From the NCBI GenBank assembly GCA_025936755.1, contig JAICSS010000003.1, positions 44,272 to 108,271 on the forward strand: DNA of 64,000 nt. The letters are read 5' to 3'. Origin of the DNA: Solirubrobacterales bacterium. GTDB lineage: Bacteria; Actinomycetota; Thermoleophilia; Solirubrobacterales; 70-9. Below, piece by piece: positions 2,269 through 12,139 of this stretch. The notes under the pieces were generated by a model that was not told the origin of the DNA, ran no database searches, and saw only the letters and a list, made by a program, of their open reading frames with translations. The position numbers were made by a program, and so were the translations under genes. Within the stretch, counting starts at the first letter, position 1, and each line of letters opens with the position of its first letter.

Positions 2269-3353
2269 GGGGCCTCGGCGATCTCGGTCACCCGGCGCGA
2301 TCCGTCGGCGCCGCGCTCCAGGTGGACGACGAGGTCGATCCCCCGCCGCACCTGCTCGGTCACCGCGGAGTGCGGCAGCCCCACGCCCGCCATCAGGACA
2401 AGGGTCTCCAGCCGGCGGAGGGCGTCGGCGGGAGAGTTGGCGTGGATCGTCGAGAGGGCCCCCTCGTGACCGGTGTTGAGGGCGGTCAGGAGATCGAGCG
2501 CCTCGACTCCCCGCACCTCGCCGATCACGATCCGGTCCGGCCGCATCCGCAGCGCGTTCCGCAGCAGGTCGCGGATCGTCACCTCGCCGCGGCCCTCGAT
2601 TCCGGCTGGCCGGCTCTCGAGGCGGACGACGTGGGGCTGCCGCAGCCGCAGCTCGGCTGCGTCCTCGATCGTCACCACCCGCTCCGCCGGGGCGATGAAG
2701 CCGGAGAGCGCGTTCAGCAGCGTCGTCTTCCCCGAGCCGGTGCCGCCGCTGACGAGGACGCTGCGGCGCCCCGCCACCGCCGCGGCGAGCAGGTCCCGCT
2801 GCGCCGCCGCCAGCGTCCCCAGCGCGACCAGCTCGTCGGGGCCGGGCCGGTCGGCGCCGAAGCGGCGGATCGAGAGCGACGGACCGTCGATCGCCAGCGG
2901 CGGGATCACGACGTTGACCCGGGAGCCGTCGGCGAGGCGGGCGTCGACCATCGGACTCAGCTCGTCGACCCGGCGGCCGAGCGGGGCGAGGATGCGCTCG
3001 ATCGCGTTCCTCAGCTCCTCCTCGCCCTCGAAGGCGACGTCGGTCGCTTCCAGCAGGCCCCGCCGCTCTACGTAGACGCGGTCGGGCCCGTTGACCATCA
3101 CCTCCTCCACCGCAGGGTCGGCGAGCAGCACCTCGAGCGGCCCCAGCCCGACGCTGTCGCGGACGATCCGCTCGACCACCTGTTCGCGCTCGGCCCGCGG
3201 CAGCACCGCGGCGTGCCCCTCGACCACCTCGCGGGCGGTCTCGGCCAGCTCCTCCCCGCCGGGCCCTCCGGCGGCGGCGGCGCGGCGGCGCTCGACGATC
3301 CGCGCCCTCAGCCCCGCCGCCAGCTCGGCGATGTCCCGCTCCCGCGCCGCCAT
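2265..3353 (-). CDS. cpaF: Tad pilus secretion ATPase CpaF/TadA
   Basis: Walker A GGTGSGKTTLLNAL and VVTIEDAAELRL with the GEVRG Asp/His-box region. ATG at 3351-3353 forms an ATGA overlap with the cpaB stop. The upstream 306 codons of the 668-aa ORF are Arg/Pro junk. Confidence 0.9.
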   Translation of the reverse strand: MAARERDIAELAAGLRARIVERRRAAAAGGPGGEELAETAREVVEGHAAVLPRAEREQVVERIVRDSVGLGPLEVLLADPAVEEVMVNGPDRVYVERRGLLEATDVAFEGEEELRNAIERILAPLGRRVDELSPMVDARLADGSRVNVVIPPLAIDGPSLSIRRFGADRPGPDELVALGTLAAAQRDLLAAAVAGRRSVLVSGGTGSGKTTLLNALSGFIAPAERVVTIEDAAELRLRQPHVVRLESRPAGIEGRGEVTIRDLLRNALRMRPDRIVIGEVRGVEALDLLTALNTGHEGALSTIHANSPADALRRLETLVLMAGVGLPHSAVTEQVRRGIDLVVHLERGADGSRRVTEIAEAP

Positions 3354-3997
3354 CAGCGCGGGATCACGGTGACGCTGCGGGCGAAGCTCTGGGCGGCGAT
3401 CAGGCGCAGCGCCTGCGGTCGGGTCAGGCCGAGGGTCGCGGTGGCTTCCCCCTGACCGCCTTCGCCGCCTGGCGTCAGCGCCAGCAGCGGGACCGCCGAC
3501 GCGGCGACGTAGGTGCGGCCGTCGCCGGATCCGCTCGGTTCGGCGGTGACGACGACGTCGACCCTGGAGCCGACCGGCTGGGCGCCGAAGGCGGAGAGGG
3601 CGCCGGCGCCCTCGACGAGGATCTCCACCGGGCGCCGGCCCCTTGCGAGGGCGCCGTCGGCGCGGGGCGGCTGCGCGGTACGCAGAAGGGTGGCGAGCAC
3701 ATAGGAGCCGCGCGGGATCGCGACGGTCGGGGTCAGGCCCACCGCTTCCCGCGGCGAGGCGAGGGCGCCGGGCGGGGCGAAGCGGATCGGCACCCGCCGC
3801 ACCTCCATGTCTTCGGCGGCGACGCGCGGGTCGATTGCCGTTCCAGCCTGCAGCTCGCCGGCGGCGATCAGCACCGGTCGCAGCTCCCCGTAGCCCCTGA
3901 CCACACTGTCTCCATAGCCGTCGGCGATCGCCGCCGCCGCTGCCGCGGCCAGAGTCGCCGCGAGCAGGAAGGCGACGGCGCGGCCGCGCCGGCTCAT
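3353..3997 (-). CDS. cpaB: Flp pilus assembly protein CpaB (SAF/RcpC-type)
   Basis: N-terminal TM segment AVAFLLAATLAAAAAAAI followed by a SAF-like beta region, and positioned directly upstream of cpaF. ATG at 3995-3997 overlaps the kinase stop (ATGA). Confidence 0.7.
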   Translation of the reverse strand: MSRRGRAVAFLLAATLAAAAAAAIADGYGDSVVRGYGELRPVLIAAGELQAGTAIDPRVAAEDMEVRRVPIRFAPPGALASPREAVGLTPTVAIPRGSYVLATLLRTAQPPRADGALARGRRPVEILVEGAGALSAFGAQPVGSRVDVVVTAEPSGSGDGRTYVAASAVPLLALTPGGEGGQGEATATLGLTRPQALRLIAAQSFARSVTVIPR

Positions 3998-4707
3998 CGG
4001 CTCGCCCCCGCCAGCGGCAGCTCGAGACGGGCCTCGGTGCCCTCGGCGGACCGGCGCAGGCGGTAGCTGCCGCCGCACCTCGCCGCCAGCCGCCGCACGA
4101 TCCGCAGGCCATGGCCGTGACGGTCGCGCCCGGCGGTCCGGATCGCGCGCAGCATCCGGCGGCGCCGGGGACCGGCCCCGCCGCAGCCGCCGTCTCTGAC
4201 GACGAGATGGAGGCGATCGCCTGCTTCGCCGATCTCGACGACCACGGCATCGCGCCCGTGCACCAGCGCATTGCTGATCAAGTTGTCCAGCGCCTGCCCA
4301 AGCTCCGCCGGCGGGGTTTGGAGAACCGGTTCGCCCGCTCTCCACTCGAGGCTGACGGAGCGGTCGAGGGCCTCGGCGGGACGGCGCCACCGCTCCATCG
4401 CCGACTCGACCGCCGGCCTCAGCGATACCGGCCCGGCCGGCGCTTCCAGCGGCCCGCCGTTGATCTCCCGGTCGAGCCTCTCGACGGCGGCGACGGCCAT
4501 CAGCAGGCATGCCCCCGCGGGCTCGCTCTCCGATCCGTCCGCCGGCAGCGACAGCGCCAAGCCCTGCAGCGGCCGGCGAAGCTCGTGCATCGCCTCGTTC
4601 AGCGAGGACCGCCGCCGCCCCTCCCGCAGCGCGGTGATCCCAGTCGCCATCGCAAAGGAAGCGGCAACCGGCAGCCCGCCGGCCAGCTCCGACAGCTCCA
4701 AGGGCAT
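3994..4707 (-). CDS. Minimal sensor histidine kinase (one TM segment, HisKA plus HATPase_c)
   Basis: H-box MHELRRPLQGL, N-box LDNLISNALVHG, G-box HGHGLRIVRRLA. Only about 30 residues, containing one hydrophobic segment, precede the H-box. Confidence 0.8.
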   Translation of the reverse strand: MPLELSELAGGLPVAASFAMATGITALREGRRRSSLNEAMHELRRPLQGLALSLPADGSESEPAGACLLMAVAAVERLDREINGGPLEAPAGPVSLRPAVESAMERWRRPAEALDRSVSLEWRAGEPVLQTPPAELGQALDNLISNALVHGRDAVVVEIGEAGDRLHLVVRDGGCGGAGPRRRRMLRAIRTAGRDRHGHGLRIVRRLAARCGGSYRLRRSAEGTEARLELPLAGASR

Positions 4708-5074
4708 CTCAGCCGCCGTCCTGGGATCGGTTCATGGGGGACTAAGGGGCGAGCACCGCCCTTCTCTCCCCCTCGACGGCGAGCGCAGCTCCCAAAACGC
4801 GACCTTTCCGTCGCCTCGCAGCGCACCCGCTCCCGACCCGGGCTCGGCCAGGCGCATCGAGGGGGCGGGCGCAACCGGGGAAGACCGTTGCCCCGGGGAC
4901 ATAAGTGCCCGAATTTGACAGCGACTGCAACCGAGTAAAGCGGTCGATCTCTTTTACTGCATGTTTTCCTATCGAGATTGGTTCCGACGGACCGTTTTGG
5001 AATACTTGTCTAGTAACTCGGGCGTTCTGCCACCAACGTCTCCCCCGTCCGGGTGAAGAAACGGAGGTCCTCCC

Positions 5075-5674
5075 TTGCCACAGTCCCGCACGTCACCAGA
5101 GGGCATTACGCAGCAGCTTGCGAAGGCCCTTGCCCACCCCCTACGGGTTCGCATCCTCAGCTCCCTGCACAAAGGGATCTCGAGTCCGAACCAGCTCGCC
5201 CAGGAGCTCGGCGAGCCGCTGGGCAACGTCAGCTACCACGTCAAAACCCTGCTCGAGTACGACTGCGTCGAACTGGTCAAAACCGAGCCGCGGCGCGGCG
5301 CCGTCGAGCATTTCTACCGCGCCACCGACCGCGCCTTCCTCAGCGACTCGGACTGGGGCAAGATCCCGGCCTCCGCCCGCAAAGGCATCTCCGGCTCGAT
5401 CCTCGAGTCGATCGGCCAGAGCGCGACCGAGGCGATGGCCGAGGGGACGATCGAGGGCCGCAAGGACTCCCACCTCTCCGACACGCCGCTCCTGCTCGAC
5501 GAGCAGGGCTGGAAGGACCTCAACAAGGTCCTCGCCGACGCGGTGAAGAAGTCCGCCGAGATCCAGAAGGAAGCCGCCACGCGCCTCGACAGCAAGGCCG
5601 ACGGCATCCCGACCAAGCTGGCGATCATGCACTTCGAGGTCCCGGCCGCGAAGAAGGCCAAAGCGAAGAAGTAG
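5075..5674 (+). CDS. ArsR-like winged-helix regulator with a conserved C-terminal extension (paralogue family)
   Basis: LAHPLRVRILSSL...NVSYHVKTLLEYDCVELV wHTH. C-terminal DEQGWKDL...IPTKLAIMHFEVP matches 27452-28699 and 41074-41691. TTG start with GGAGG 6 nt upstream. Confidence 0.75.
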   Translation: MPQSRTSPEGITQQLAKALAHPLRVRILSSLHKGISSPNQLAQELGEPLGNVSYHVKTLLEYDCVELVKTEPRRGAVEHFYRATDRAFLSDSDWGKIPASARKGISGSILESIGQSATEAMAEGTIEGRKDSHLSDTPLLLDEQGWKDLNKVLADAVKKSAEIQKEAATRLDSKADGIPTKLAIMHFEVPAAKKAKAKK

Positions 5675-5683
5675 AGCCTTATC

Positions 5684-5712
5684 GACGCCCCCGCGAGGCA
5701 CGCGGGGGCGTC
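5684..5712. terminator. Bidirectional stem-loop between convergent genes
   Basis: Perfect 12-bp stem GACGCCCCCGCG / CGCGGGGGCGTC with a 5-nt loop, lying between the stops at 5674 and 5726. Confidence 0.5.
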
Positions 5713-5725
5713 GCCTTCATCTCCG

Positions 5726-6095
5726 CTAGCCGTCGACCAGGCGGTAGCCGATGCCCCAGCAGTTGACAACGAAGCGGTTGCCCTCGGGGTCGAGTTTGAG
5801 GCGCAGGCGGCTGGCGTGGGAGTCGAGGGTGCGGGTCTTGGAAGGGCCGCGGTAGGCCCAGACCGCATCCAGGAGCTCTTCCTTCGTATAGACCCGGAGG
5901 GGATCCGAGGCGAGGACGCGGAGGAGGGCGAACTCCTTCTTCGCGAGGTGGACCTCGCGATCGCCCACCGTGACCCGGCGGCGCAGCGGGTCGATCACGA
6001 GATCGCCGACGCGGGTGGGCCCTTCGTTGGGTTCCGTGCGGCGCCTGAGGACGGCGCCGATGCGGGCGCGCAGCTCGCCGTAGACGAACGGCTTG
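5726..6095 (-). pseudogene. OmpR-family response regulator, 3' fragment (end of receiver plus winged-helix DNA-binding domain), cut off by the integrated element
   Basis: Begins ...KPFVYGELRARIGAVLRRR, then a Trans_reg_C domain (LAKKEFALLRVL, RTLDSHASRLRLKL, VNCWGIGYRLV). It has no receiver domain of its own. The TTG start in the ORF track lies in element DNA. Confidence 0.85.
6087..6095. repeat. attL crossover core
   Basis: AACGGCTTG, identical to 11787-11795. The bases immediately flanking each copy differ. Confidence 0.8.
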
Positions 6096-6098
6096 CCT

Positions 6099-6149
6099 TT
6101 CAATCATTTGTTTGGCCCCATCCCAATCAGCGACCCAGAGCCAAAATAA
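6099..6149 (+). repeat. Copy 1 of a 51-nt repeat that would encode the alternative recombinase C-terminus after excision
   Basis: In frame with the recombinase across a reconstructed attP: ...NGL PFNHLFGPIPISDPEPK stop. About 80% identical to 7082-7132. Confidence 0.7.
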
Positions 6150-6225
6150 GCTGCTCGTAGCTCCTGCCTCGCACAATGCGGAAGTCCCCGGTCGCTTGGG
6201 CGAGTCGCAACGGTAGCCTCGCCGA

Positions 6226-7068
6226 GTGGCTAGCGACCGCTTTGAATTCCCCGAGACGTTCGATTCCGAACTTGAGATCGGCGACCTGCCCGGCAACAAG
6301 GCGTTCTTCGGCCGCGATGTTCTCGGCGGACTGGTCGGCGGTATCGACGACTACATGCGCCAGCGCCAGGAGCGGTGGAGGCGGCGAGGGTATCGGTCGA
6401 TGGGGCCGGGCCTCCTTGGCACGGCTATGTGGATGGACGATCCCGAGTTCATCGACAAGCTGACCGAACTCTCAGGAGCCTGCGTGGTCGTCACGAAGCA
6501 ACCGAGATCGAAGCGGGACCTTGAGAAGTTCGAGCGCCTGGCGGCACTTAACGAGCAAACCCCAGGGCTTCGCGTCGCAGCGTTCCCCGCCCTCAGCGAC
6601 CTTGCACCCAAGGTAGACGGCAAGCCCCGACTCGTCGGACCATACGACCAAATCGGCGAGGATTCGATACCTACCATCCGCGCGCTCGGATTCCGGCGCA
6701 AGGGGAACCCGCTCGTTCCGATCATGCACGCCAAGCTGGCGATCCTCGGCGAGTTCTGGTGGTACGACGAAGGGGCTCTCGGCGAGGTTGGCGACTTCTA
6801 CGGCTTCACTCCGGCGCGGCTGTGGGTCTCTTCAGCGAACTTCACCCGCCAGTCCCGGCGAAGCCTTGAGTTCGGCTACTGGACCGAGAATGAGGGACTC
6901 CGCGAAGCGGCTTATAGATTCGTTCTGCAGGCGATTCGGTTTTCGGAGTCGCTGGATTCCGCTGCGGACGCGCTTGATCCTGAGTTTGTACCGATCGAGT
7001 TCGATGACGCCGCCATGCTCGAAGCGATCGCCGACATGGAGTTCGAGGACGAGGACTTGGACGAGTAA
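6226..7068 (+). CDS. PLD-superfamily (single HKD-like) putative nuclease with an acidic C-terminal tail
   Basis: IMHAKLAILG (HxK) followed, after an insert, by LWVSSANFT (GSxN-like). Tail is EFEDEDLDE. Only one HKD-like motif, so a dimer would be needed as in Nuc/BfiI. Confidence 0.55.
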   Translation: MASDRFEFPETFDSELEIGDLPGNKAFFGRDVLGGLVGGIDDYMRQRQERWRRRGYRSMGPGLLGTAMWMDDPEFIDKLTELSGACVVVTKQPRSKRDLEKFERLAALNEQTPGLRVAAFPALSDLAPKVDGKPRLVGPYDQIGEDSIPTIRALGFRRKGNPLVPIMHAKLAILGEFWWYDEGALGEVGDFYGFTPARLWVSSANFTRQSRRSLEFGYWTENEGLREAAYRFVLQAIRFSESLDSAADALDPEFVPIEFDDAAMLEAIADMEFEDEDLDE

Positions 7069-7081
7069 TGCGCCCTCGTCC

Positions 7082-7132
7082 TTCTGGCAATTGTTTGGAC
7101 CGATCCCAATCAGCAACGCAGAGCCGAAATAG
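7082..7132 (+). repeat. Copy 2 of the recombinase-tail repeat (relic)
   Basis: Would encode FWQLFGPIPISNAEPK stop. From TTG onward it differs from copy 1 at 6 positions: 3 synonymous, 1 stop-to-stop, 2 non-synonymous. Confidence 0.65.
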
Positions 7133-7248
7133 GCCGCTTTAGGCAGATTCCCCGAATCTGCCTACACCTCCCTTCCTTCCTTTACTCACCCATCAAGCAA
7201 ACCGAGGCCCCTCCGGTGGGGGGGGAAGTTCTCCGCTTCCTCCACGCT

Positions 7249-7283
7249 GTTGGTCCCATGCCGTGACCTAAAGGCAGAAAGAC
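7249..7283. repeat. Left copy of a 35-bp inverted repeat
   Basis: GTTGGTCCCATGCCGTGACCTAAAGGCAGAAAGAC equals the reverse complement of 9683-9717 at 34 of 35 positions. Confidence 0.85.
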
Positions 7284-7302
7284 CTCCGGTCCCTCGTAAA
7301 CC

Positions 7303-7432
7303 CCGAAGCCGCCTCGCTTCCCTGGGCCCCCGCGCTCCTTGCATCTGACCCCGGTCGATCACGAATAGTGAGCGGGTGGGGTCAGATGCAAGGAGCGCCC
7401 TCATTTGGCCCAGGGAAGCGAGGCGGCTTCGG
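7303..7432. repeat. 130-nt long imperfect palindrome (21-bp plus 26-bp perfect stems)
   Basis: Left arm 7303-7352 pairs with right arm 7378-7432. Inner stem GCGCTCCTTGCATCTGACCCC / GGGGTCAGATGCAAGGAGCGC. Outer stem CCGAAGCCGCCTCGCTTCCCTGGGCC / GGCCCAGGGAAGCGAGGCGGCTTCGG. Confidence 0.85.
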
Positions 7433-7519
7433 ACGCTGCAATCGCAGCCCTGTTCGCAGCCTCCCGCGCTTCTTGAAATGCAACCCCGAAAAGTGGCCGA
7501 GCTCCAATAGGCTGCGCCG

Positions 7520-7723
7520 ATGCCCGAGGACGCGAAACGCCAGGCTGCCGCCGAAGCTGTGAAGGCAGTTCAGAAGGAGTTCCTGCGGCAGACGTCCGAA
7601 GCTCGGGCGACTCGCCGCAAGGTCTTCAAAGAAGCTAGGGAGGCGGGGTTGAACCTGCGGGAGATTGGCGAGTTGGCCGGTATCCATCACACGACGGTCG
7701 GCGAAATCATTCGGGGAGGATGA
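7520..7723 (+). CDS. Small helix-turn-helix protein (candidate regulator or recombination directionality factor)
   Basis: 67 aa. C-terminal LNLREIGELAGIHHTTVGEIIRGG resembles a Hin/resolvase-type HTH. Lies inside the element. Confidence 0.55.
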   Translation: MPEDAKRQAAAEAVKAVQKEFLRQTSEARATRRKVFKEAREAGLNLREIGELAGIHHTTVGEIIRGG

Positions 7724-7837
7724 TTTTGGAGGGTTAACCCTCCAAAGCTGCTACGGTAGCGGCGACCAAGAGAAGCGGCCCCCGGCGGTGCGGAAACACC
7801 AACCGGGAGCCTGACCACAAGGAGATGCATCCTCCTC

Positions 7838-8191
7838 ATGGCTAGAGACAACGATATGGGCGGCGGGTCGCTGGTGCCTCTTGACCTTCCCCCGCAGCAC
7901 ATCCCGATCCTGCGCGAACGTCTGACGACCTGGCTGGACGGCGTTCGGGAGGATCTGGAAGCCGTCGACGAGGCACAGGGACTCGATCAGGCCTGGCAGG
8001 AAGCGCGGGCATTTGAGCGGTTGCTAACCGCTCTTGCGACGGGGAAGATTTGCCTTCCCGACGAAGCGGCCAGGACGGCGCTCGAGGTCTCGGCAGCTGC
8101 GCATGACAAGGAGAGCGACTACGCGGACGTAGCTGCAACTCACGATGCGCTTCATGCCCTGCTTGACGCATTGGGGGGTGCCCGCGCTTGA
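7838..8191 (+). CDS. Hypothetical all-helical protein (element cargo)
   Basis: 117-aa ORF. Its stop overlaps the next start. No recognisable motif. Confidence 0.45.
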   Translation: MARDNDMGGGSLVPLDLPPQHIPILRERLTTWLDGVREDLEAVDEAQGLDQAWQEARAFERLLTALATGKICLPDEAARTALEVSAAAHDKESDYADVAATHDALHALLDALGGARA

Positions 8192-8436
8192 TCGCCACCG
8201 ACTTGCGGCTGCAACGGGTCGTGCTGGCACTTGTTCTCCGAGAACATCCGGCAGTTCTTTCGCTGCCGGCGCTGGCCGGCCAGGTTCTCGCGGACCCTCG
8301 CGCCCTCACCGGCAAGGTGGCTCTTGCCCGCGCCCTCCGCGACCTGGACAACGAGGGCTTGGTGTTCAGTGACGGCTCGCATATGCAGCCGAGCCGACCG
8401 GCTATCTACGTCAAGCGTCTGCTGGGGGCCTGCTGA
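8188..8436 (+). CDS. Hypothetical small protein, possibly winged-helix
   Basis: 82 aa. The pattern LQRVVLALVLREHP...ALRDLDNEGLVFSDG resembles a wHTH. Overlapping start and stop codons on both sides. Confidence 0.45.
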   Translation: MIATDLRLQRVVLALVLREHPAVLSLPALAGQVLADPRALTGKVALARALRDLDNEGLVFSDGSHMQPSRPAIYVKRLLGAC

Positions 8437-8924
8437 TGTTGGTTCCGGGGCGCTTCAGCAGCGCCGCGATCAACATCGGCGAGGGCGAGTTGGAGGTCCG
8501 TCTGAGCGACGGCGGCAATTGGCGAGTTCAGGTGCGCTCCACCGATGGGGAAGACTGGCGGCTGCTCTGCCGGGGCCACATTGACGGCACCATCTTTGAG
8601 ACTGCCGGGGCTGACGATGAAGCGCCGATCATGGTCGGCCCGCTACGGGTCGATCCAGCGGCCCGCTGCGTCGAAGTTCACGGCGCTCCGGTGTGCTTGA
8701 CGGCGCGGGAGTTTGAGTTGGTGGCGCTACTTGCTACGGACCCCGGCCGCGTCTTCACCAAGGACGAGTTGTTGCGGGAGGTCTGGAAGCACAGGGCTGG
8801 CGGCAGCAGTCGCACCCTTGACTCACATGCCAGCCGCGTCCGCAACAAACTCCGCAAAGCCGGGGCCGACGGCTTCATAGTCAACTGCTGGCGCGTCGGC
8901 TACATGCTTTGCGGAGATCGCTAG
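8436..8924 (+). CDS. Receiver-less OmpR/PhoB-type winged-helix DNA-binding protein with an unknown 60-aa N-terminal domain
   Basis: LTAREFELVALLA, RTLDSHASRVRNKL and FIVNCWRVGYML form a Trans_reg_C domain. No Asp-pocket receiver motifs upstream of it. Confidence 0.8.
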   Translation: MLVPGRFSSAAINIGEGELEVRLSDGGNWRVQVRSTDGEDWRLLCRGHIDGTIFETAGADDEAPIMVGPLRVDPAARCVEVHGAPVCLTAREFELVALLATDPGRVFTKDELLREVWKHRAGGSSRTLDSHASRVRNKLRKAGADGFIVNCWRVGYMLCGDR

Positions 8925-8967
8925 CTATTTGCATAGCAATTTGATCTGAGGGTGGACCGTTTCGGTC

Positions 8968-9441
8968 TTGAGCATCGTCTTAGGGGTCGATGCTCAAAGG
9001 ATTGAACGGATGCCCGACGGATCGAACGAAATCTATGCGGACGTTGCCGCCCAGCGCAGGCAATTTGCCGTACTCCTGGCGCAGCTACGCGCCGCCGAGC
9101 CGCGTTTCGCGGAAGCGTCGATCCTGCTGCCCAATGAGTATGGCGAGTGGCATGCGGCTGTCTACCTCCTGATTGGTTGCGGGCCGGTCTGGGACAGACT
9201 TGGCCCCCCGATAGTCGCGCAGTGTTCGCTTTCGCCTGTCTTTGAAGAGATGGAAAGCGCTCGGCGTCGCTGGACGAAAGACCAGCGCGCAGCGATGGAA
9301 TGGGCGCTGCACTTCTGGAGGCCGGACAAATACGCGGCCAGCTTTCCGGAGGCGTTCGGGGCGTTCATGTTCACCCGGTGGATCGTCGCCTTGCATCTAC
9401 AGAAGGGTCTCGTTCCGAGGATTCGCATAGATCGGGGCTGA
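8968..9441 (+). CDS. Hypothetical protein (element cargo)
   Basis: 157-aa ORF with coding-like composition and no recognisable motif. Confidence 0.45.
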   Translation: MSIVLGVDAQRIERMPDGSNEIYADVAAQRRQFAVLLAQLRAAEPRFAEASILLPNEYGEWHAAVYLLIGCGPVWDRLGPPIVAQCSLSPVFEEMESARRRWTKDQRAAMEWALHFWRPDKYAASFPEAFGAFMFTRWIVALHLQKGLVPRIRIDRG

Positions 9442-9682
9442 ACCGTGTATGCCGTGCGCTCCCGCCGACCCACCCAGCAAATAGCGCTGCGCCGCTCGGC
9501 AGTCAAGGGCGCGATGCGCCCGACCCCTTTAGGGGTTGACGGCCGAGCGGCGCGGCGCTTCGCTGGCAGGTAGGTCGGCGGCGGTGAAAAAAGGGTCAGC
9601 AGGTTCACTTTGGCCGGGGTGCTAGGCGAACGCCATTAGCGCAATCGGAACCATCACGACGAAAGTAACGATCTTGATCGTT

Positions 9683-9717
9683 GTCTTTCTGCCTTTAGGT
9701 CACGGCATGTGACCAAC
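9683..9717. repeat. Right copy of the 35-bp inverted repeat
   Basis: GTCTTTCTGCCTTTAGGTCACGGCATGTGACCAAC. Contains the internal palindrome GGTCAC-N5-GTGACC. Confidence 0.85.
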
Positions 9718-9719
9718 AG

Positions 9720-9882
9720 TGTCGGAACCAATAGAGAATGTCACCACTTGTTTTCGGTATGTGTAGTGAGAAAAAAATGTGTAGAAAGTTAGGGTGTGTG
9801 TGATTAGTCCAGAAACTTATTCCGCAAAGTGATCTACTTCCCTTTGTATGAAAAGGGAGAACCAACAACAAGTAGGTGAAGT
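9720..9882 (+). promoter_or_regulatory. AT-rich regulatory island upstream of the RHH-like ORF and the recombinase
   Basis: GC is far below the window average. Direct repeat ATGTGTAG at 9759-9766 and 9777-9784, followed by a GTGTGTGTG run. Confidence 0.3.
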
Positions 9883-10179
9883 ATGGAAAGCAGGGAGAAA
9901 CAACAACAAGGAGGAGATAAGCCACTGGTCGCATCCTTCAAGGACTGCGACTCATCAGCCTCGCCGCCACATACCGTCCGGCTGGAGATCATTCCCACGC
10001 ACAGGCAATACATGCAGCTCTGCAATGACCTACGCGAGCTGCGCCGACGCGGGGCCGAGACCAACACGGTCGCCATCATCGACGCGGTTCACGCCGCCAC
10101 TTCGCATAAGATCGAGGCTAGAACTTATAAACGGGCCGAGGGGCGTATGCGCGCCCCCCGGCCCCGCAACAGGAGGTAA
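9883..10179 (+). CDS. Putative ribbon-helix-helix-like small protein upstream of the recombinase
   Basis: TVRLEIIPTHRQYMQLCNDLRELRRRGAETNTVAIIDAVHAA fits a strand-helix-helix pattern. Its stop lies within the recombinase RBS (AGGAGGTAA). Start codon is uncertain. Confidence 0.35.
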   Translation: MESREKQQQGGDKPLVASFKDCDSSASPPHTVRLEIIPTHRQYMQLCNDLRELRRRGAETNTVAIIDAVHAATSHKIEARTYKRAEGRMRAPRPRNRR

Positions 10180-10184
10180 GTCCT

Positions 10185-11804
10185 GTGCCTGATAACCGTA
10201 GCGACCTCGCCATTCTCTACGCGGCGAAGTCAACGAAAGACGAGAAGGGAAGCATCCCCACGCAGCTAGGGGACACGGAGATTGCTGCGCTCGCGGAAGG
10301 CCGCGCTATTGCCGAGCGCTATGCCGACGAGAACGAGAGCGCCTATCACGGCAACCGTGGCCCCAAACTTGAAGCTGCGCTAGATCACGCGGAGCGGATC
10401 GGAGCCGAGCTTTGGGTCCAACACTCCGACCGGCTCGCCCGCGGCGACGGCGTGAAGGCCCGCCATCTTGTCCAGCTTGTCTTTGAGGCCAAGGCTCGCG
10501 GTATCCGCCTGCGCTCGGTCGAAGACGATGCCTCGCTCGAAAACGTGGTGATGGCGGCGGTGATGGGCGAGCGCAACACCGAGGATTCCCGCCGAAAGGC
10601 GGCGGCGGTGAAAGCCGGTATGGAGCGCAAGCGCCAGCGTGGCGAATACATCGGCCACCGCCCCTACGGCTACAAGTGGGAGCGTGATGAGAAGGATGAT
10701 CGCCAGATCGTTCCCGACCCCGTCCAAGCCCCGCTCATCCGGCGCATCTTCAAGGAATACCTTGCGGGTGAATCTCAGAAGGCAATCGCCCGCAATCTCA
10801 CTCGGGACAACGTGCAGACCCCGCGCGGGGGAACTCGGTGGTATCCCGGAACCGTCCGTCAAATCCTGGCCCGCCCGCTCTATGCGGGCTGGATTCCCGA
10901 CGGGAAAGACGGAGTCCTAGAGGGCAACCATGAGCCGCTAATCACCCGCGAGGAATGGGAACAAACGGAAGACTTGCGAAAGGCAAAAGCTCGCGGTCCT
11001 GGTCGTGGTCGGCCTGTGGCGGGGCGGCACCTTTTCCGCAAGGGCTTCCTTCGTTGCGGGGCCTGCGGCGGCGCTCTAATTCCTCGGACGATCCCCAATC
11101 GAGCAAATCCGCCCCGTGAAGTCTATGAATGCTTCACCCGGCATTGCGACCTTGACGGGTGTTCGCAGGAGCCGATCCTGCGCGTCGAAATCGACGGCGC
11201 AGTCCTCGGCTACTTTGAGCAAGTCGGGCTCGACTTGGACGCTACGCGGGACGAACTGGCGGCAGCGATGGACAGAAAGATCGAAGAGACCCGAGCCCTT
11301 CTGAGGGCGGCCCAAAAGGACGCGGCGACCGCTGCCGATCGACTCGCCCGCGTCAAGAGCGACTACCTGAGCGGCGAGTTGACCGCTGCCGAGTGGCGGG
11401 AGTTGCGAGCGGAGCTTGAGCCCAGCACCGTCGCCGCCTCTGCAGAGGTGGAGCGCCTAGCCGAGCAACTTCAGACTCACGAAAGCGACGGCGCCGTTGA
11501 GGTCGCGGAGCGCGAGGTATATGACTTGCTTCGGCAGATTCGGGAGACCGTGACCGGCTCGGCGGCGGATACCGCAGGAGCCCAGGCGGTGAGCGCGACG
11601 CTTCTTCGACTCTTCGACCACTTCACGTACCACGTAGGGATTCCCGAGCGGGCAAATGTCGAGTTGGTCGAAGCTCATAGCTGGATCGAGCCGACGATCA
11701 AGCCCGACCCGATTCACGGCCGCGACGATGAAGATTTCCCCCTCCCGTCCCGCGAACCGCTTGGCCAAGCCGCAAACAAAGGGCACAACGGCTTGGTGAG
11801 GTAA
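10185..11804 (+). CDS. Large serine recombinase (integrase)
   Basis: Resolvase catalytic domain (AILYAAKSTKDEKGSIPTQ, HSDRLARG), recombinase domain, zinc ribbon CGACGG...C...C, and a coiled coil. GTG start with AGGAGG. The last 3 codons and the stop lie in host DNA beyond the att core. Confidence 0.92.
   Translation: MPDNRSDLAILYAAKSTKDEKGSIPTQLGDTEIAALAEGRAIAERYADENESAYHGNRGPKLEAALDHAERIGAELWVQHSDRLARGDGVKARHLVQLVFEAKARGIRLRSVEDDASLENVVMAAVMGERNTEDSRRKAAAVKAGMERKRQRGEYIGHRPYGYKWERDEKDDRQIVPDPVQAPLIRRIFKEYLAGESQKAIARNLTRDNVQTPRGGTRWYPGTVRQILARPLYAGWIPDGKDGVLEGNHEPLITREEWEQTEDLRKAKARGPGRGRPVAGRHLFRKGFLRCGACGGALIPRTIPNRANPPREVYECFTRHCDLDGCSQEPILRVEIDGAVLGYFEQVGLDLDATRDELAAAMDRKIEETRALLRAAQKDAATAADRLARVKSDYLSGELTAAEWRELRAELEPSTVAASAEVERLAEQLQTHESDGAVEVAEREVYDLLRQIRETVTGSAADTAGAQAVSATLLRLFDHFTYHVGIPERANVELVEAHSWIEPTIKPDPIHGRDDEDFPLPSREPLGQAANKGHNGLVR
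11787..11795. repeat. attR crossover core
   Basis: AACGGCTTG. It lies inside both the recombinase 3' end and the response-regulator K-P codons on the opposite strand. Confidence 0.8.
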
Positions 11805-12139
11805 TCGTCGGCGCCGGAGTCGAGGCCGCGGACCTTGTCGGTGCCGCCGCCGCGGCCGGTGAGGACGATCACCGGCAGCCGCGGATCGAAGCGGGAGTCG
11901 ACGCCGTCGGCGTCGCGGATCTCGCGCAGGACGTCGAGGCCGGAGGCGTCCGGCAGCGAGAGGTCCAGCAGCAACAGGTCGGGATGGTTGTACCGGCACA
12001 GCCGCAGCGCGTCGGAGGCGCTGGGCGCGGGCATGACGCCGAAGCGATCGGCGGCGAGGTGCTCGCAGAGCAGGTCGAGGGTGACGTGGTCGTCCTCGCA
12101 GACGACGAGGCTGGCTATCTCTTCTCGTTGGGGGAGCAT
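11787..12139 (-). pseudogene. OmpR-family response regulator, 5' fragment (complete receiver domain), interrupted by the element
   Basis: VVCEDD, LLLLDLSLPD, VIVLTGR and ADDYLTKP give every receiver signature. After KP the frame runs into element DNA (LCPLFAAW...). Confidence 0.85.

What the first reader, a model, noticed from the sequence alone, without database searches (positions are those of the whole stretch)
6099..7132. The recombinase gene spans attR, so its C-terminus changes with integration state; a second relic copy of the alternative tail brackets the PLD gene
In the integrated state the recombinase ends ...NGLVR using host codons. Across a reconstructed attP the same frame would read ...NGLPFNHLFGPIPISDPEPK and stop at 6147-6149. 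A second copy at 7082-7132 would encode FWQLFGPIPISNAEPK plus a stop. From TTG onward the two copies differ at 6 positions: 3 synonymous, 1 stop-to-stop and 2 non-synonymous. That pattern suggests purifying selection on a coding sequence, not a neutral repeat. The 1-kb PLD module therefore sits between two tail copies. This suggests tandem integration of related elements followed by deletion, or cassette capture at attP.
Basis: seen in the sequence. Interest (0 to 1): 0.7.

Follow-up and report, generated by a model that had tools for sequence, protein, structure and literature searches.

The report
Recombinase gene that spans its attachment site
A 5.7-kb mobile element sits inside a response-regulator gene, and its serine recombinase gene runs across the element's own attachment site, so the enzyme has a conserved 17-residue tail only when the element is excised; a second copy of that tail marks where a nuclease-like gene was later picked up.

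Summary
Window 6095-11794 is a 5,700-bp element inside an OmpR-family response-regulator gene. Uninterrupted copies of that gene, in the same gene neighbourhood, exist in other genomes. The large serine recombinase gene (10185-11804) crosses the TT crossover 11 nt before its stop. Integrated, it ends NGLVR. Across a rebuilt attP it ends NGLPFNHLFGPIPISDPEPK.

This holds for the whole family. Most of the 120 nearest homologues change sequence class just after a conserved A-x-N-N. Eight or more lineages with different targets rebuild in frame to L-F-G-P-I-(P)-[IVLM]. "LF" (TTGTTY) mirrors the AAACAA in the P arm, so it reflects the DNA site. The next codons vary at third positions and keep hydrophobic residues, so they look protein-coding. 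One public contig carries a contiguous attP-form gene.

The second copy (7082-7132) is a relic half-site plus tail. Three close relatives at the same site have one tail and lack the 983-bp module. Tail 1 plus the ORF recurs as a unit in another array. The ORF has a PLD-superfamily fold.

What the tail does is untested. The closest precedents, Mx8 IntP and SSV integrases, are tyrosine recombinases, so this is a new variant of a known kind.

The parts
5726..6094 (-). Displaced 3' part of the host OmpR-family response-regulator gene (Trans_reg_C domain), left of attL
   Evidence: Pfam Trans_reg_C, E = 8e-21. It joins in frame with 11795-12139 to give a 237-aa regulator. Intact homologues reach 96% identity.
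6088..6096 (.). attL core AACGGCTTG; inferred crossover dinucleotide TT at 6093-6094
   Evidence: The same 9-mer lies at 11788-11796. TT is the centre of the 42-bp imperfect palindrome in the rebuilt attP. The unoccupied attB matches the window's flanks on either side of this TT.
6095..6113 (+). P' half-site: 13 nt (GCCTTTCAATCAT) followed by TTGTTT, which mirrors the P-arm AAACAA
   Evidence: The geometry AAACAA-N13-(central dinucleotide, TT in most)-N13-TTGTTY is shared across the family.
6096..6149 (+). Tail copy 1: codons PFNHLFGPIPISDPEPK plus stop. This is the C-terminus of the recombinase in the excised (attP) form.
   Evidence: It is in frame with 10185-11795 across the rebuilt attP. 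The LFGPI(P)[IVLM] motif is conserved with third-position variation in 27 distinct tails.
6226..7068 (+). Cargo ORF (280 aa), a single-domain PLD-superfamily (HKD) nuclease-like protein
   Evidence: 279 homologues of about 280 aa, none with a Pfam domain. H168, K170, S203, A204, N205 and T207 are invariant. AlphaFold pLDDT 83. All top Foldseek matches are PLD superfamily: PLD3/4, NucT (TM 0.72), Nuc, Zucchini and BfiI. The ORF is absent from L004, L084 and L085.
7076..7132 (+). Relic half-site (TC + GTCCTTCTGGCAA + TTGTTT) followed by tail copy 2 (FWQLFGPIPISNAEPK*, 7082-7132)
   Evidence: Repeat D2. Its 3' half and the sequence downstream of it match the single tail of L004 and L085. Homology linked to the ORF in L090 and L091 ends at 7074-7078.
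7140..7164 (+). 11-bp hairpin just after tail copy 2; probably the terminator of the recombinase gene in the ancestral excised form
   Evidence: -20.5 kcal/mol, z = -4.6. It is conserved directly after the single tail in L004, L084 and L085. It has no T-run, so the consensus scan does not flag it.
10185..11804 (+). Large serine recombinase gene (539 aa in the integrated form, 554 aa across attP)
   Evidence: Pfam Resolvase, Recombinase and Zn_ribbon_recom. 436 homologues.
11774..11794 (+). P half-site inside the recombinase ORF (AAACAA + AGGGCACAACGGC) and crossover TT (11793-11794), 11 nt before the stop
11795..12139 (-). 5' part of the split response-regulator gene (receiver domain). Its Asp-Tyr codons, read in antisense, supply the recombinase stop codon.
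   Evidence: Pfam Response_reg, E = 6.5e-17; reconstruction.

Best explanation
**The element (shown).** Window 6095-11794 is a small integrative element. It was inserted by its own large serine recombinase into the DDYLTKPF-coding stretch of an OmpR-family response-regulator gene.

**The attachment site (shown).** attP is a 42-bp imperfect palindrome, AAACAA-N13-TT-N13-TTGTTT. Its left arm and crossover lie inside the last codons of the recombinase gene. Two protein forms follow from this:
- The excised circle encodes a 554-aa enzyme ending in an element-encoded tail, PFNHLFGPIPISDPEPK.
- The integrated element encodes a 539-aa enzyme ending in two host-derived residues. Its stop codon comes from the antisense of the host Asp-Tyr codons.

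**The tail motif (shown).** The tail core L-F-G-P-I-(P)-[I/V/L/M] is kept at the protein level in many lineages of this recombinase family that use different target genes.

**What the tail does (inferred).** The tail is a short linear motif at the end of a disordered C-terminal extension. It probably makes the excised-form enzyme differ functionally from the integrated-form enzyme, in integration competence, directionality or stability. That would give a switch that depends on integration state, as with Mx8 IntP.

**The second copy (shown).** The copy at 7082-7132 is the element's original tail. A 983-bp unit was inserted in front of it, made of a new tail, a spacer and the PLD-like ORF.

**How the unit arrived (inferred).** Insertion was by recombination at or next to the conserved P'/tail sequence. 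Such half-site-plus-tail repeats bracket cargo in relatives as well.
For: **Boundaries and attB**
- intact regulator at 96% identity, and loci with an unoccupied site in the same gene neighbourhood.

**Recombinase identity**
-.

**Site geometry**
- The P-arm geometry is shared by all 16 loci examined. A search that did not use the tail sequence then recovered a matching attL in 9 of them.

**A family-wide trait**
- Of the 120 nearest homologues, at least 60 stop 6-9 residues after A-x-N-N, with endings specific to the target class.
- 15 read through into one host gene, and 4 read into a tRNA gene (GFEPATFGL). Only 2 carry an LFGPI-type tail.

**In-frame tails in other lineages**
- L015, L009 and L010 (about 52% identical recombinases, a different target), L047, L022 and L018 (45-48%, ECF-sigma-like target), L038, and the tRNA-targeting L016, L020, L027, L034 and L041.

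**Protein-type constraint**
- TTGTTY followed by GG.CC.AT occurs 29 times in 1.7 Mb, against a background that tails off at 4-5 matches.
- Entropy by codon position is (0, .23, 1.48) (.61, .23, .83) (0, 0, 1.12) (1.34, 1.18, 1.99) (1.28, 0, 1.38).
- Codons 4 and 5 were not used to find the sites. Codon 5 is NTN in 27 of 27. Codon 3 never ends in G.

**A natural contiguous attP-form gene**
- L094/P0061: AAACAA-TTGTCGTCAGACC-TT-GGTCTACCGTCAA-TTGTTTGG.

**Structure**
- AlphaFold of P0061 gives a confident body. Residues 508-551 have pLDDT of about 30-40.

**The cassette**
- L004, L084 and L085 have one tail, followed directly by the hairpin, and no ORF.
- L091 carries tail 1 plus the ORF as a unit at 93% identity, behind a different half-site.
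- Elsewhere the ORF occurs alone.
- L015 and L010 carry arrays of two or three half-site-plus-tail repeats.
Against: - **No functional data.** Nothing shows that the two protein forms behave differently. The tail is predicted to be disordered, so the structure gives no hint of a binding partner.
- **Part of the motif is a DNA-site effect.** This covers LF (TTGTTY), and possibly GP as well, since those codons fall within about 25 bp of the centre.
- **The antisense frame is not formally excluded.** Third positions of the tail frame coincide with third positions of the antisense frame, which continues the host gene frame. Periodicity alone therefore does not fix the strand. Only codon 3 (ATH, never ATG) and codon 5 (NTN) favour the sense frame.
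- **The 27 tails are not phylogenetically independent.**
- **No attP-form contig for the window's own lineage.** All 11 members of its 90% cluster are 539 aa, the integrated form.
- **The cassette junctions do not fit one simple mechanism.** The left edge of homology with L091 lies near TTGTTT. The right edge lies at the predicted crossover dinucleotide, which is TC rather than TT.
- **The L015 and L010 arrays are not explained by canonical attP x attB chemistry.** Their repeats carry host-type left arms.
Confidence: 0.72

Rival explanations
1. The tail is not a functional peptide. Its conservation reflects DNA-level roles only: an extended P' half-site for the recombinase or a directionality factor, plus the start of a terminator. 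On this view the open frame is an unavoidable by-product of the recombinase gene overlapping attP.
For: TTGTTY is the exact mirror of the P-arm AAACAA at fixed spacing, so "LF" is a DNA-site effect and the frame is fixed by geometry. The GG.CC. bases fall within about 25 bp of the centre, the usual reach of a serine-integrase half-site (established knowledge of these sites). The tail is predicted to be disordered. Beyond five codons the tails diverge freely and vary in length.
Against: The three-base periodicity extends to codons that were not used to find the sites. Codon 4 is CCN in about 19 of 27, with an even spread of bases at the third position. Codon 5 has T at position 2 in 27 of 27, while positions 1 and 3 vary and always give I, V, L or M. 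Codon 3 is never ATG. DNA-protein contacts are not expected to produce a period of three. These positions lie 27-36 bp from the centre, and the P arm shows no mirrored conservation there.
Confidence: 0.15
2. The periodicity comes from the opposite strand. The antisense frame, which continues the host gene's frame into the element, is the one that is translated. It would give element-encoded N-terminal extensions or start codons for the displaced host gene fragment at attL.
For: Third positions of the recombinase frame and the host-gene frame coincide in all three target classes examined. In L047 and L018 the antisense frame is open from the element into the sigma-factor fragment (...SMGIGPNNCRK|TKINRCLAEGR) and contains an ATG. 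In the window the P' arm supplies a TTG that opens ORF 5726-6103.
Against: In the window and in L084 the antisense frame hits TGA inside the P' arm (sequence). The antisense reading of codon 5 would be A-[T/C/G]-N, giving Ile, Thr, Ser or Arg, which share no common property. The sense reading is always aliphatic. The absence of G at the third position of codon 3 has no antisense explanation, because all the resulting GGN codons encode Gly. Long open frames are common by chance at 70% G+C.
Confidence: 0.06
3. The two tail copies come from tandem integration of two related elements, followed by an internal deletion that removed the second recombinase gene. They do not come from capture of a small cassette.
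For: The copy-2 half-site (GTCCTTCTGGCAA) differs in type from the P' arm used by this recombinase lineage in L004, L084 and L085, and resembles those of L015 and L047. Backbones are mosaic: L022 and L047 carry relic PI(S/T)..EPK tails plus the hairpin region inside elements with different recombinases. Tandem islands at a serine-recombinase target are documented for the Dehalococcoides ssrA islands (PMC3146451).
Against: The interval holds only one ORF with about 75 nt and 10 nt of flank. No recombinase or P-arm remnant lies to the left of copy 2. The same tail 1 plus ORF unit is found in L091 behind an unrelated half-site. The ORF also moves alone, with boundaries 16 nt upstream of its start and at its stop. 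Serine integrases do not normally recombine attP with attL or attR (established knowledge).
Confidence: 0.2

Closest known systems
Myxophage Mx8 IntP (Tojo et al. 1996, as cited in PMC4383910)
   Same: attP lies inside the 3' part of the integrase gene. Integration replaces the C-terminal residues with a few host-encoded ones, so the free and integrated forms encode different proteins.
   Different: Mx8 Int is a tyrosine recombinase, whereas this enzyme is a large serine recombinase. By my recollection Mx8 exchanges about 110 residues; I did not check this. Here 17 residues of a disordered tail are exchanged, and the catalytic and DNA-binding domains are untouched.
SSV-type integrases of archaeal viruses and plasmids, the so-called suicidal integrases (PMC7253208)
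   Same: The recombination site is carried inside the integrase open reading frame.
   Different: These are tyrosine recombinases. Integration splits the gene into two large inactive parts. Here the integrated gene keeps all its domains.
Integration-dependent immunity of mycobacteriophages (PMC8092301)
   Same: attP lies inside a gene, so the free and integrated products differ at the C-terminus and integration acts as a genetic switch. There the C-terminal extension acts as a degradation tag.
   Different: The gene is the repressor, not the integrase, and those systems use tyrosine integrases. The tags end in -AA (ssrA-like). This tail ends ..EPK or in other variable endings, and its conserved part is LFGPI.
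Canonical phage serine integrases (phiC31, Bxb1, A118, SPbeta)
   Same: Same domain set: resolvase, recombinase domain, zinc ribbon and a long coiled coil. Short core identity, a 2-bp crossover, imperfectly palindromic attP, and insertion inside host coding sequences.
   Different: In those systems attP lies outside the integrase gene (my recollection; no counter-example turned up in searches). Directionality is set by a separate protein. No state-dependent isoform has been described for them.
Tandem ssrA genomic islands of Dehalococcoides, and cis-mobilizable elements more generally (PMC3146451)
   Same: Repeated att-type sequences bracket cargo modules that lack an integrase, next to an element that carries a serine recombinase. 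Cargo accumulates on the side away from the target gene.
   Different: There the repeats are 20-bp copies of the target's 3' end and the units are islands of many kilobases. Here the repeat is the element-side half-site plus a coding tail, and the unit is a single gene of about 1 kb.

Membership tests
Large serine recombinase (serine integrase) | N-terminal resolvase catalytic domain with a conserved serine, followed by a recombinase domain and a zinc-ribbon domain with an inserted coiled coil | tested here: met
   Pfam PF00239, PF07508 and PF13408 all exceed their cut-offs. S16 is invariant, as are two of the cysteines in the zinc-ribbon region (C294, C326), in alignment A1. AlphaFold of the homologue P0061 shows long helices at 349-454.
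Large serine recombinase (serine integrase) | attP is an imperfect inverted repeat around a 2-bp crossover, identity with attB is short, and integration is precise | tested here: met
   42-bp palindrome centred on TT. The shared core is 9 bp. The unoccupied attB matches the flanks exactly.
Large serine recombinase (serine integrase) | Catalyses attP x attB without a cofactor, and attL x attR only with a directionality factor | not testable with these tools
   Needs biochemistry. No candidate directionality factor could be identified: the small ORFs have no family hits.
Integrase genes that extend across attP (Mx8 IntP type) | The crossover lies inside the integrase ORF, so the C-terminus differs between the free and integrated states | tested here: met
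   Crossover at 11793-11794, stop at 11802-11804. The rebuilt attP gives a 17-residue alternative tail.
Integrase genes that extend across attP (Mx8 IntP type) | Tyrosine recombinase chemistry | tested here: not met
   Serine recombinase domains only.
Integrase genes that extend across attP (Mx8 IntP type) | The two isoforms differ in activity | not testable with these tools
   Only indirect evidence is available: protein-level conservation of the tail.
SSV-type split integrase | Integration separates the gene into two parts that each lack essential domains | tested here: not met
   The integrated ORF keeps residues 1-537 and all its domains.
Integration-dependent immunity | attP lies inside the repressor gene, and the free form carries an ssrA-like -AA degradation tag | tested here: not met
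   The gene is the recombinase. Tails end EPK, GNG, DLS, VRD and so on, none in -LAA or -AA.
Integron-type cassette array | A tyrosine IntI, an attI site and attC-bounded promoterless cassettes | tested here: not met
   No tyrosine recombinase is present. The repeats are recombinase half-sites plus a coding tail, not attC hairpins.
Tandem accretion / cis-mobilizable element | A module without an integrase, bounded by two att-type sites next to an element that has the integrase | tested here: inconclusive
   The PLD module is bounded by attL and an internal relic half-site. However, the inner site has TC instead of TT and no host-type arm. The L015 and L010 arrays have complete sites. Mobility of these modules is untested.
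PLD superfamily (HKD) nuclease-like proteins, for ORF 6226-7068 | HxK...N catalytic motif | tested here: met
   H168, K170, S203, A204, N205 and T207 are invariant in 30 homologues. The spacing between HxK and SxN is longer than in Nuc.
PLD superfamily (HKD) nuclease-like proteins, for ORF 6226-7068 | PLD fold | tested here: met
   AlphaFold pLDDT 83, pTM 0.81, though only one of the five models was confident. The top 50 Foldseek matches are all PLD superfamily: NucT TM 0.72, PLD3/4, Nuc, Zucchini and BfiI, with E about 1e-3.
PLD superfamily (HKD) nuclease-like proteins, for ORF 6226-7068 | A match to a curated PLD sequence model | tested here: not met
   No Pfam, PADLOC, PHROGs or PDB sequence match, even with a profile.

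The most novel reading that the evidence does not exclude
The LFGPI tail is a built-in directionality or activity switch. Only the excised circle can make the integration-competent recombinase. The integrated copy makes a tail-less form that is inert, or competent only for excision. Directionality would then be set partly by the topology of the element's own gene rather than by a separate factor alone. In addition, the conserved half-site-plus-tail sequence would serve as the point where single-gene cargo cassettes are captured and exchanged, which would make these elements a cassette platform based on a serine recombinase.
Probability: 0.15. Interest if true: 0.85.

Novelty: new variant of a known kind. 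Interest (0 to 1): 0.6.

Why it matters
- **Precedent.** Integrase genes that cross attP are known for tyrosine recombinases (Mx8, SSV). My literature searches found no such case for large serine recombinases.
- **Enzyme mining.** Serine integrases are mined from integrated prophages as genome-engineering tools. For this family, the ORF read from an integrated copy is not the protein that carried out the integration. Its true C-terminus can be recovered only by joining attR to attL. If the tail matters for activity, enzymes cloned from integrated copies would be mis-built.
- **An easy experiment.** Two natural isoforms that differ only in a short disordered tail make it simple to test how a C-terminal extension affects directionality. 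Engineered integrase-directionality-factor fusions already show that C-terminal additions can reverse the reaction (PMC5737554; abstract seen).
- **Cargo acquisition.** The repeats of half-site plus tail that bracket single cargo genes suggest a route by which small integrative elements acquire cargo.

Tried and rejected
- **Viral contigs.** A scan for the generic attP pattern found 0 matches.
- **Metagenome contigs.** The scan for close relatives returned only 3 loci, none with the left end of a close relative.
- **attL not found.** I could not locate attL for L003, L006, L007, L008, L011, L012, L026 or L028 within the 10 kb fetched. The copy-2 half-site therefore could not be matched to a living lineage.
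- **PVISPIS tails.** These are found in 15 homologues and first looked like a second class of attP tail. They turned out to be host-encoded read-through of an ECF-sigma-like target gene.
- **Tail-only protein search.** A representative-library search was not attempted, because rebuilt sequences from other loci are not accepted and 16 residues cannot reach significance.
- **Cluster members.** All are the 539-aa integrated form.
- **Cargo ORF.** Pfam, PADLOC, PHROGs and PDB sequence searches gave nothing. Only the fold search was informative.
- **Promoter and terminator scan.** No better than shuffled sequence.
- **Rfam.** Only sub-threshold, hairpin-like matches.
- **AlphaFold of the attP-form homologue.** The tail came out disordered, so there is no docking hypothesis.
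- **Element-borne OmpR-type protein.** I tested whether it is a recent capture of the target gene. It is only 47% identical, so this was rejected.
- **L015 array.** I tried to find its host junction by comparing L009, L010 and L015. The left flanks share no homology, so this was inconclusive.
Full report
**1. What is in the window**

The finding's coordinates and sequences are correct. A 539-aa ORF at 10185-11804 carries the Resolvase, Recombinase and Zn_ribbon_recom domains of a large serine recombinase. It ends ...NKGHNGLVR*.

The 9-mer AACGGCTTG occurs at 6088-6096 and again at 11788-11796. On the minus strand, 11801-12139 encodes a response-regulator receiver domain and 5726-6103 encodes a Trans_reg_C domain.

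Joining the two host flanks at the TT inside the 9-mer gives one uninterrupted 237-aa OmpR-family regulator. It contains ...GADDYLTKPFVYGEL....
- Intact 237-aa homologues reach 96% identity over 100% of the length (P0251, a cluster of 71 sequences).
- Two loci with the same neighbouring genes (PfkB, regulator, HTH_20, HATPase_c, SAF, T2SSE) carry the uninterrupted gene. At the junction they read ...GACGAACGGCTT|CGTCAGGTAGTCGTCGGCGCC....

The element is therefore 6095-11794, 5,700 bp, with the crossover at TT (6093-94 and 11793-94).

**2. The attachment site and the two protein forms**

The rebuilt attP reads AAACAA-AGGGCACAACGGC-TT-GCCTTTCAATCAT-TTGTTT. It is a 42-bp imperfect palindrome centred on TT. 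All 16 recombinase lineages I examined have AAACAA followed by 13 nt before the central dinucleotide. Wherever attL could be found, it has the same dinucleotide followed by 13 nt and TTGTTY.

Because the P arm and the crossover lie inside the ORF, the two states encode different proteins.
- The integrated gene ends with two host-encoded residues. Its stop codon is the antisense of the host Asp-Tyr codons.
- The excised form would read NGL-PFNHLFGPIPISDPEPK*, with the stop at 6147-6149.

**3. A trait of the whole family**

I sorted the 120 nearest homologues (Solirubrobacterales and relatives) by what follows the conserved A-x-N-N.
- At least 60 end 6-9 residues after it, in discrete classes: G[FL][TV][TRM], ALLL, [TV]FQP and LVWL.
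- 15 read through into one host gene (PVISPIS).
- 4 read into a tRNA gene (GFEPATFGL).
- About 12 run on for tens to hundreds of residues.
- Only 2 carry an LFGPI-type tail.

The G[FL][TV]x endings are the antisense of DY[LVI][TV]KPF, which is the same target as in the window. The PVISPIS endings are host sequence from an ECF-sigma-like gene (EIGEITGYSQTKINRCLAEGR), not an attP tail.

All 11 members of the window protein's own 90% cluster are 539 aa, the integrated form.

**4. Is the tail a conserved peptide?**

Rebuilding attP in other lineages gives in-frame tails with the same core:

| Locus | Rebuilt tail |
|---|---|
| L015 | ..AEALLLWQLFGPIPIGGNG* |
| L009 | ..YQLFGPIPIGLRPGH* |
| L047 | ..ETLVFRQLFGPIPIDLS* |
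| L022 | ..LVYRQLFGPIPVGQ.. |
| L038 | ..KKLFGAIALGDDPS* |
| L016, L020, L027, L034, L041 (tRNA-targeting) | ..KLFGPI[LV][IV].. |

One public contig holds a contiguous natural attP-form gene: L094, from a Logan assembly of SRR22405871, encoding P0061. It reads AAACAA-TTGTCGTCAGACC-TT-GGTCTACCGTCAA-TTGTTTGG and the protein ends LVYRQLFGPIAGGDDDR*.

"LF" is TTGTTY, the mirror of the P-arm AAACAA. That part of the conservation is explained by the DNA site, and the site geometry fixes the reading frame.

The next codons behave like coding sequence.
- In 1.7 Mb of fetched loci there are 567 TTGTTY. The number of matches to GG.CC.AT in the next 9 nt is bimodal: 26 sites have four matches, 4 have five and 29 have six.
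- In 27 distinct tails, entropy by codon position is (0, 0.23, 1.48), (0.61, 0.23, 0.83), (0, 0, 1.12), (1.34, 1.18, 1.99) and (1.28, 0, 1.38).
- Codons 4 and 5 were not used to select the sites. Codon 4 is CCN in about 19 of 27, with all four bases roughly equal at position 3. Codon 5 has T at position 2 in 27 of 27, and always encodes I, V, L or M.

One caveat needed checking. The antisense frame that continues the host gene has its third positions at the same bases, so periodicity alone does not fix the strand. Two features favour the recombinase frame.
- Codon 5 read in antisense would give Ile, Thr, Ser or Arg.
- Codon 3 is ATC, ATT or ATA and never ATG (0 of 27 have G). In antisense, any base there would still give Gly.

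In the window and in L084 the antisense frame also hits TGA inside the P' arm.

AlphaFold of P0061 gives a confident body. Residues 508-551 have pLDDT of about 30-40. The tail therefore looks like a short linear motif on a disordered extension.

**5. The second copy and the PLD module**

Repeat D2 pairs 6092-6155 with 7075-7138: 64 nt at 78% identity.

Three close relatives sit at the same host site: L004 (recombinase 97% identical), L084 (90%) and L085. Each has a single tail followed directly by the hairpin GCCGCTTTAGGCAGATTCCC.GAATCTGCC, and none has the ORF. Window 5000-6155 and 7088-7843 map to adjacent, overlapping stretches in each of them. Their tails are NGLPFNHLFGPIPIPHAEPK*, KGLPFDHLFGPIPIRDVDPK* and KGLPFNHLFGPIPISDAEPK*.

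The parts of the window's two copies have different affinities.
- The 3' half of copy 2 and the sequence downstream of it match those resident tails.
- The downstream flank of copy 1 is unique to the window.
- The copy-2 half-site (GTCCTTCTGGCAA) differs from the lineage's usual GCCTTTCAATCAT.

The hairpin after copy 2 is stable (7140-7164, -20.5 kcal/mol, z = -4.6). Nothing comparable follows copy 1.

The ORF 6226-7068 has 279 homologues of about 280 aa, none with a Pfam domain.
- H168, K170, S203, A204, N205 and T207 are invariant.
- The predicted structure has pLDDT 83 and pTM 0.81, although only one of the five models was confident.
- It matches only PLD-superfamily structures: NucT at TM 0.72, PLD3/4, Nuc, Zucchini and BfiI.

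Elsewhere the ORF occurs alone, in varied contexts, once beside CBASS-like genes. In those cases the homology is limited to 6210-7074.

In L091 the homology runs from 6101 to 7074. That span is a degenerate copy of tail 1 plus the spacer and the ORF, and it lies behind a different half-site-plus-tail (LFGPITVGAGG*). ORF-linked homology ends at ...TGCGCC(C)TCG. That is the dinucleotide position (7076-77, TC) 13 nt before the TTGTTT of copy 2.

I conclude that a unit of about 983 bp (tail, spacer and ORF) was inserted in front of the resident tail. Capture of a small unit fits better than tandem integration followed by deletion. The enzymology remains open.

**6. Relatives with similar repeats**

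- L015 has three direct attL-type sites (1679-1730, 3211-3262, 3950-4001). L010 has two or three, with 0.7-1.7 kb of unrelated cargo between them.
- In those arrays the left arm of each repeat encodes, on the minus strand, a plausible C-terminus of the host protein (KSKASA* or KSKSAA*). The recombinase P arm does the same.
- The left flanks of L009, L010 and L015 share no homology, whereas the element backbones and right flanks do. This resembles an accretion zone.
- L022 and L047 carry partial relic PI(S/T)..EPK tails plus the hairpin region inside elements with different recombinases.
- Tandem islands at a serine-recombinase target are documented for the Dehalococcoides ssrA islands (PMC3146451).

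**7. Comparison with known systems**

- Integrases that extend across attP are known for Mx8 and SSV (PMC4383910; PMC7253208). Both are tyrosine recombinases.
- Integration-dependent immunity places attP inside a repressor gene and removes an ssrA-like tag on integration (PMC8092301).
- Four literature searches found no description of a large serine recombinase gene spanning attP. The large survey of serine recombinases (PMC10083194) did not mention this in the passages I retrieved.
- Engineered fusions of a directionality factor to the C-terminus of a serine integrase change the direction of the reaction (PMC5737554; abstract seen). A functional C-terminal extension is therefore plausible in principle.

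**8. Verdict**

The anatomy is shown: the boundaries, the site, the two ORF forms, the family-wide pattern and the insertion of the PLD-like unit. Protein-level constraint on the tail is well supported. It rests on non-independent sequences and on two features that discriminate between the strands. The function of the tail, whether activity, directionality or stability, is inferred only. I rate this a new variant of a known kind, of moderate to good interest, with direct relevance to anyone mining serine integrases from integrated elements.

Noticed in passing
L016 3425(+)/9533(-); L020 22(+)/3984(-); L027 6024(+)/9503(-); L034 6339(+)/9535(-); L041 2118(+)/9546(-); also L017 4037(-), L054 9540(-): tRNA-targeting relatives carry an extra, intact attP in inverted orientation about 450 nt upstream of the recombinase start. 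It consists of a 3' fragment of the recombinase gene of about 100 nt, then P-O-P', the tail and about 250 nt more. Together with attL it forms long inverted repeats around about 3 kb of cargo (in L027, 6024-6270 and 9503-9290). Its purpose is unknown.
   Followed up: partly
L015 1679-1730, 3211-3262, 3950-4001; L010 3219 and 4875 (possibly 1939): Arrays of two or three complete attL-type sites in direct orientation, each a host-type arm, TT, the P' arm and an LFGPI tail. Unrelated cargo lies between them, including cupin-like, amine-oxidase-like and RTX-like ORFs. Canonical attP x attB recombination does not explain tandem attL sites.
   Followed up: partly
window 7303-7432: A near-perfect hairpin of about 60 bp (-121 kcal/mol, z = -13.9). 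It is conserved at the DNA level in L004, L084 and L085, and also in L022 and L047, which have only 45-48% identical recombinases. It has no Rfam family. It could be an origin or some other cis-acting site.
   Followed up: partly
window 7244-7283 and 9683-9722: A 40-nt inverted repeat (95% complementary) flanks the variable middle of the element. Each arm contains the palindrome GGTCAC-N5-GTGACC. Both arms are conserved in L004 and L085. It looks like a shared operator for the left and right transcription units.
   Followed up: no
window 8436-8924 (+): The element that disrupts an OmpR-family regulator itself encodes a 162-aa OmpR-type winged-helix protein without a receiver domain. Its recognition-helix region resembles that of the disrupted gene: 47% protein identity overall, and two DNA stretches of about 43 nt at 82-83%. 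It is absent from the close relative L004; the middle regions of L084 and L085 also fail to align with the window's, but were not checked for this gene specifically. It could take over the disrupted regulator's DNA targets.
   Followed up: partly
window 11797-11804 and the equivalent position in L001-L008: The stop codon of the integrated recombinase is the antisense of the invariant Asp-Tyr codons of the regulator's DDY motif. GAT-TAC gives TAA and GAC-TAC gives TAG, so any regulator of this type supplies a stop 2-3 codons after the crossover.
   Followed up: yes
L009, L010, L015 around 11575-11611: In the lineage ending ALLL, the P arm encodes the recombinase C-terminus (ENNYAEALLL) on one strand. 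On the other strand it encodes KSKASA*, which restores the C-terminus of the host target protein. In all three target classes examined, the recombinase frame and the host frame share their third codon positions.
   Followed up: partly
window 9462-9580: A stretch of about 120 nt containing a 24-nt inverted repeat (9483-9506 and 9536-9559) lies 0.6 kb upstream of the recombinase gene. It is 74-84% identical in elements with only about 45-50% identical recombinases (L016, L017, L020, L022, L034, L041 and L047). It has no Rfam family.
   Followed up: no
window 6101-6103 (minus strand), ORF 5726-6103: The P' arm supplies a TTG that opens a 125-aa minus-strand ORF. This ORF encodes only the DNA-binding domain of the split regulator (MKGKPFVYGEL...). 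If transcribed from within the element, it would yield an effector domain without a receiver.
   Followed up: no
L089 3552-8329: One homologue of the PLD-like ORF (75% identical) lies directly upstream of a CBASS-like gene set (SMODS, ThiF, JAB and SAVED). This hints that the ORF family may be associated with defence systems.
   Followed up: no
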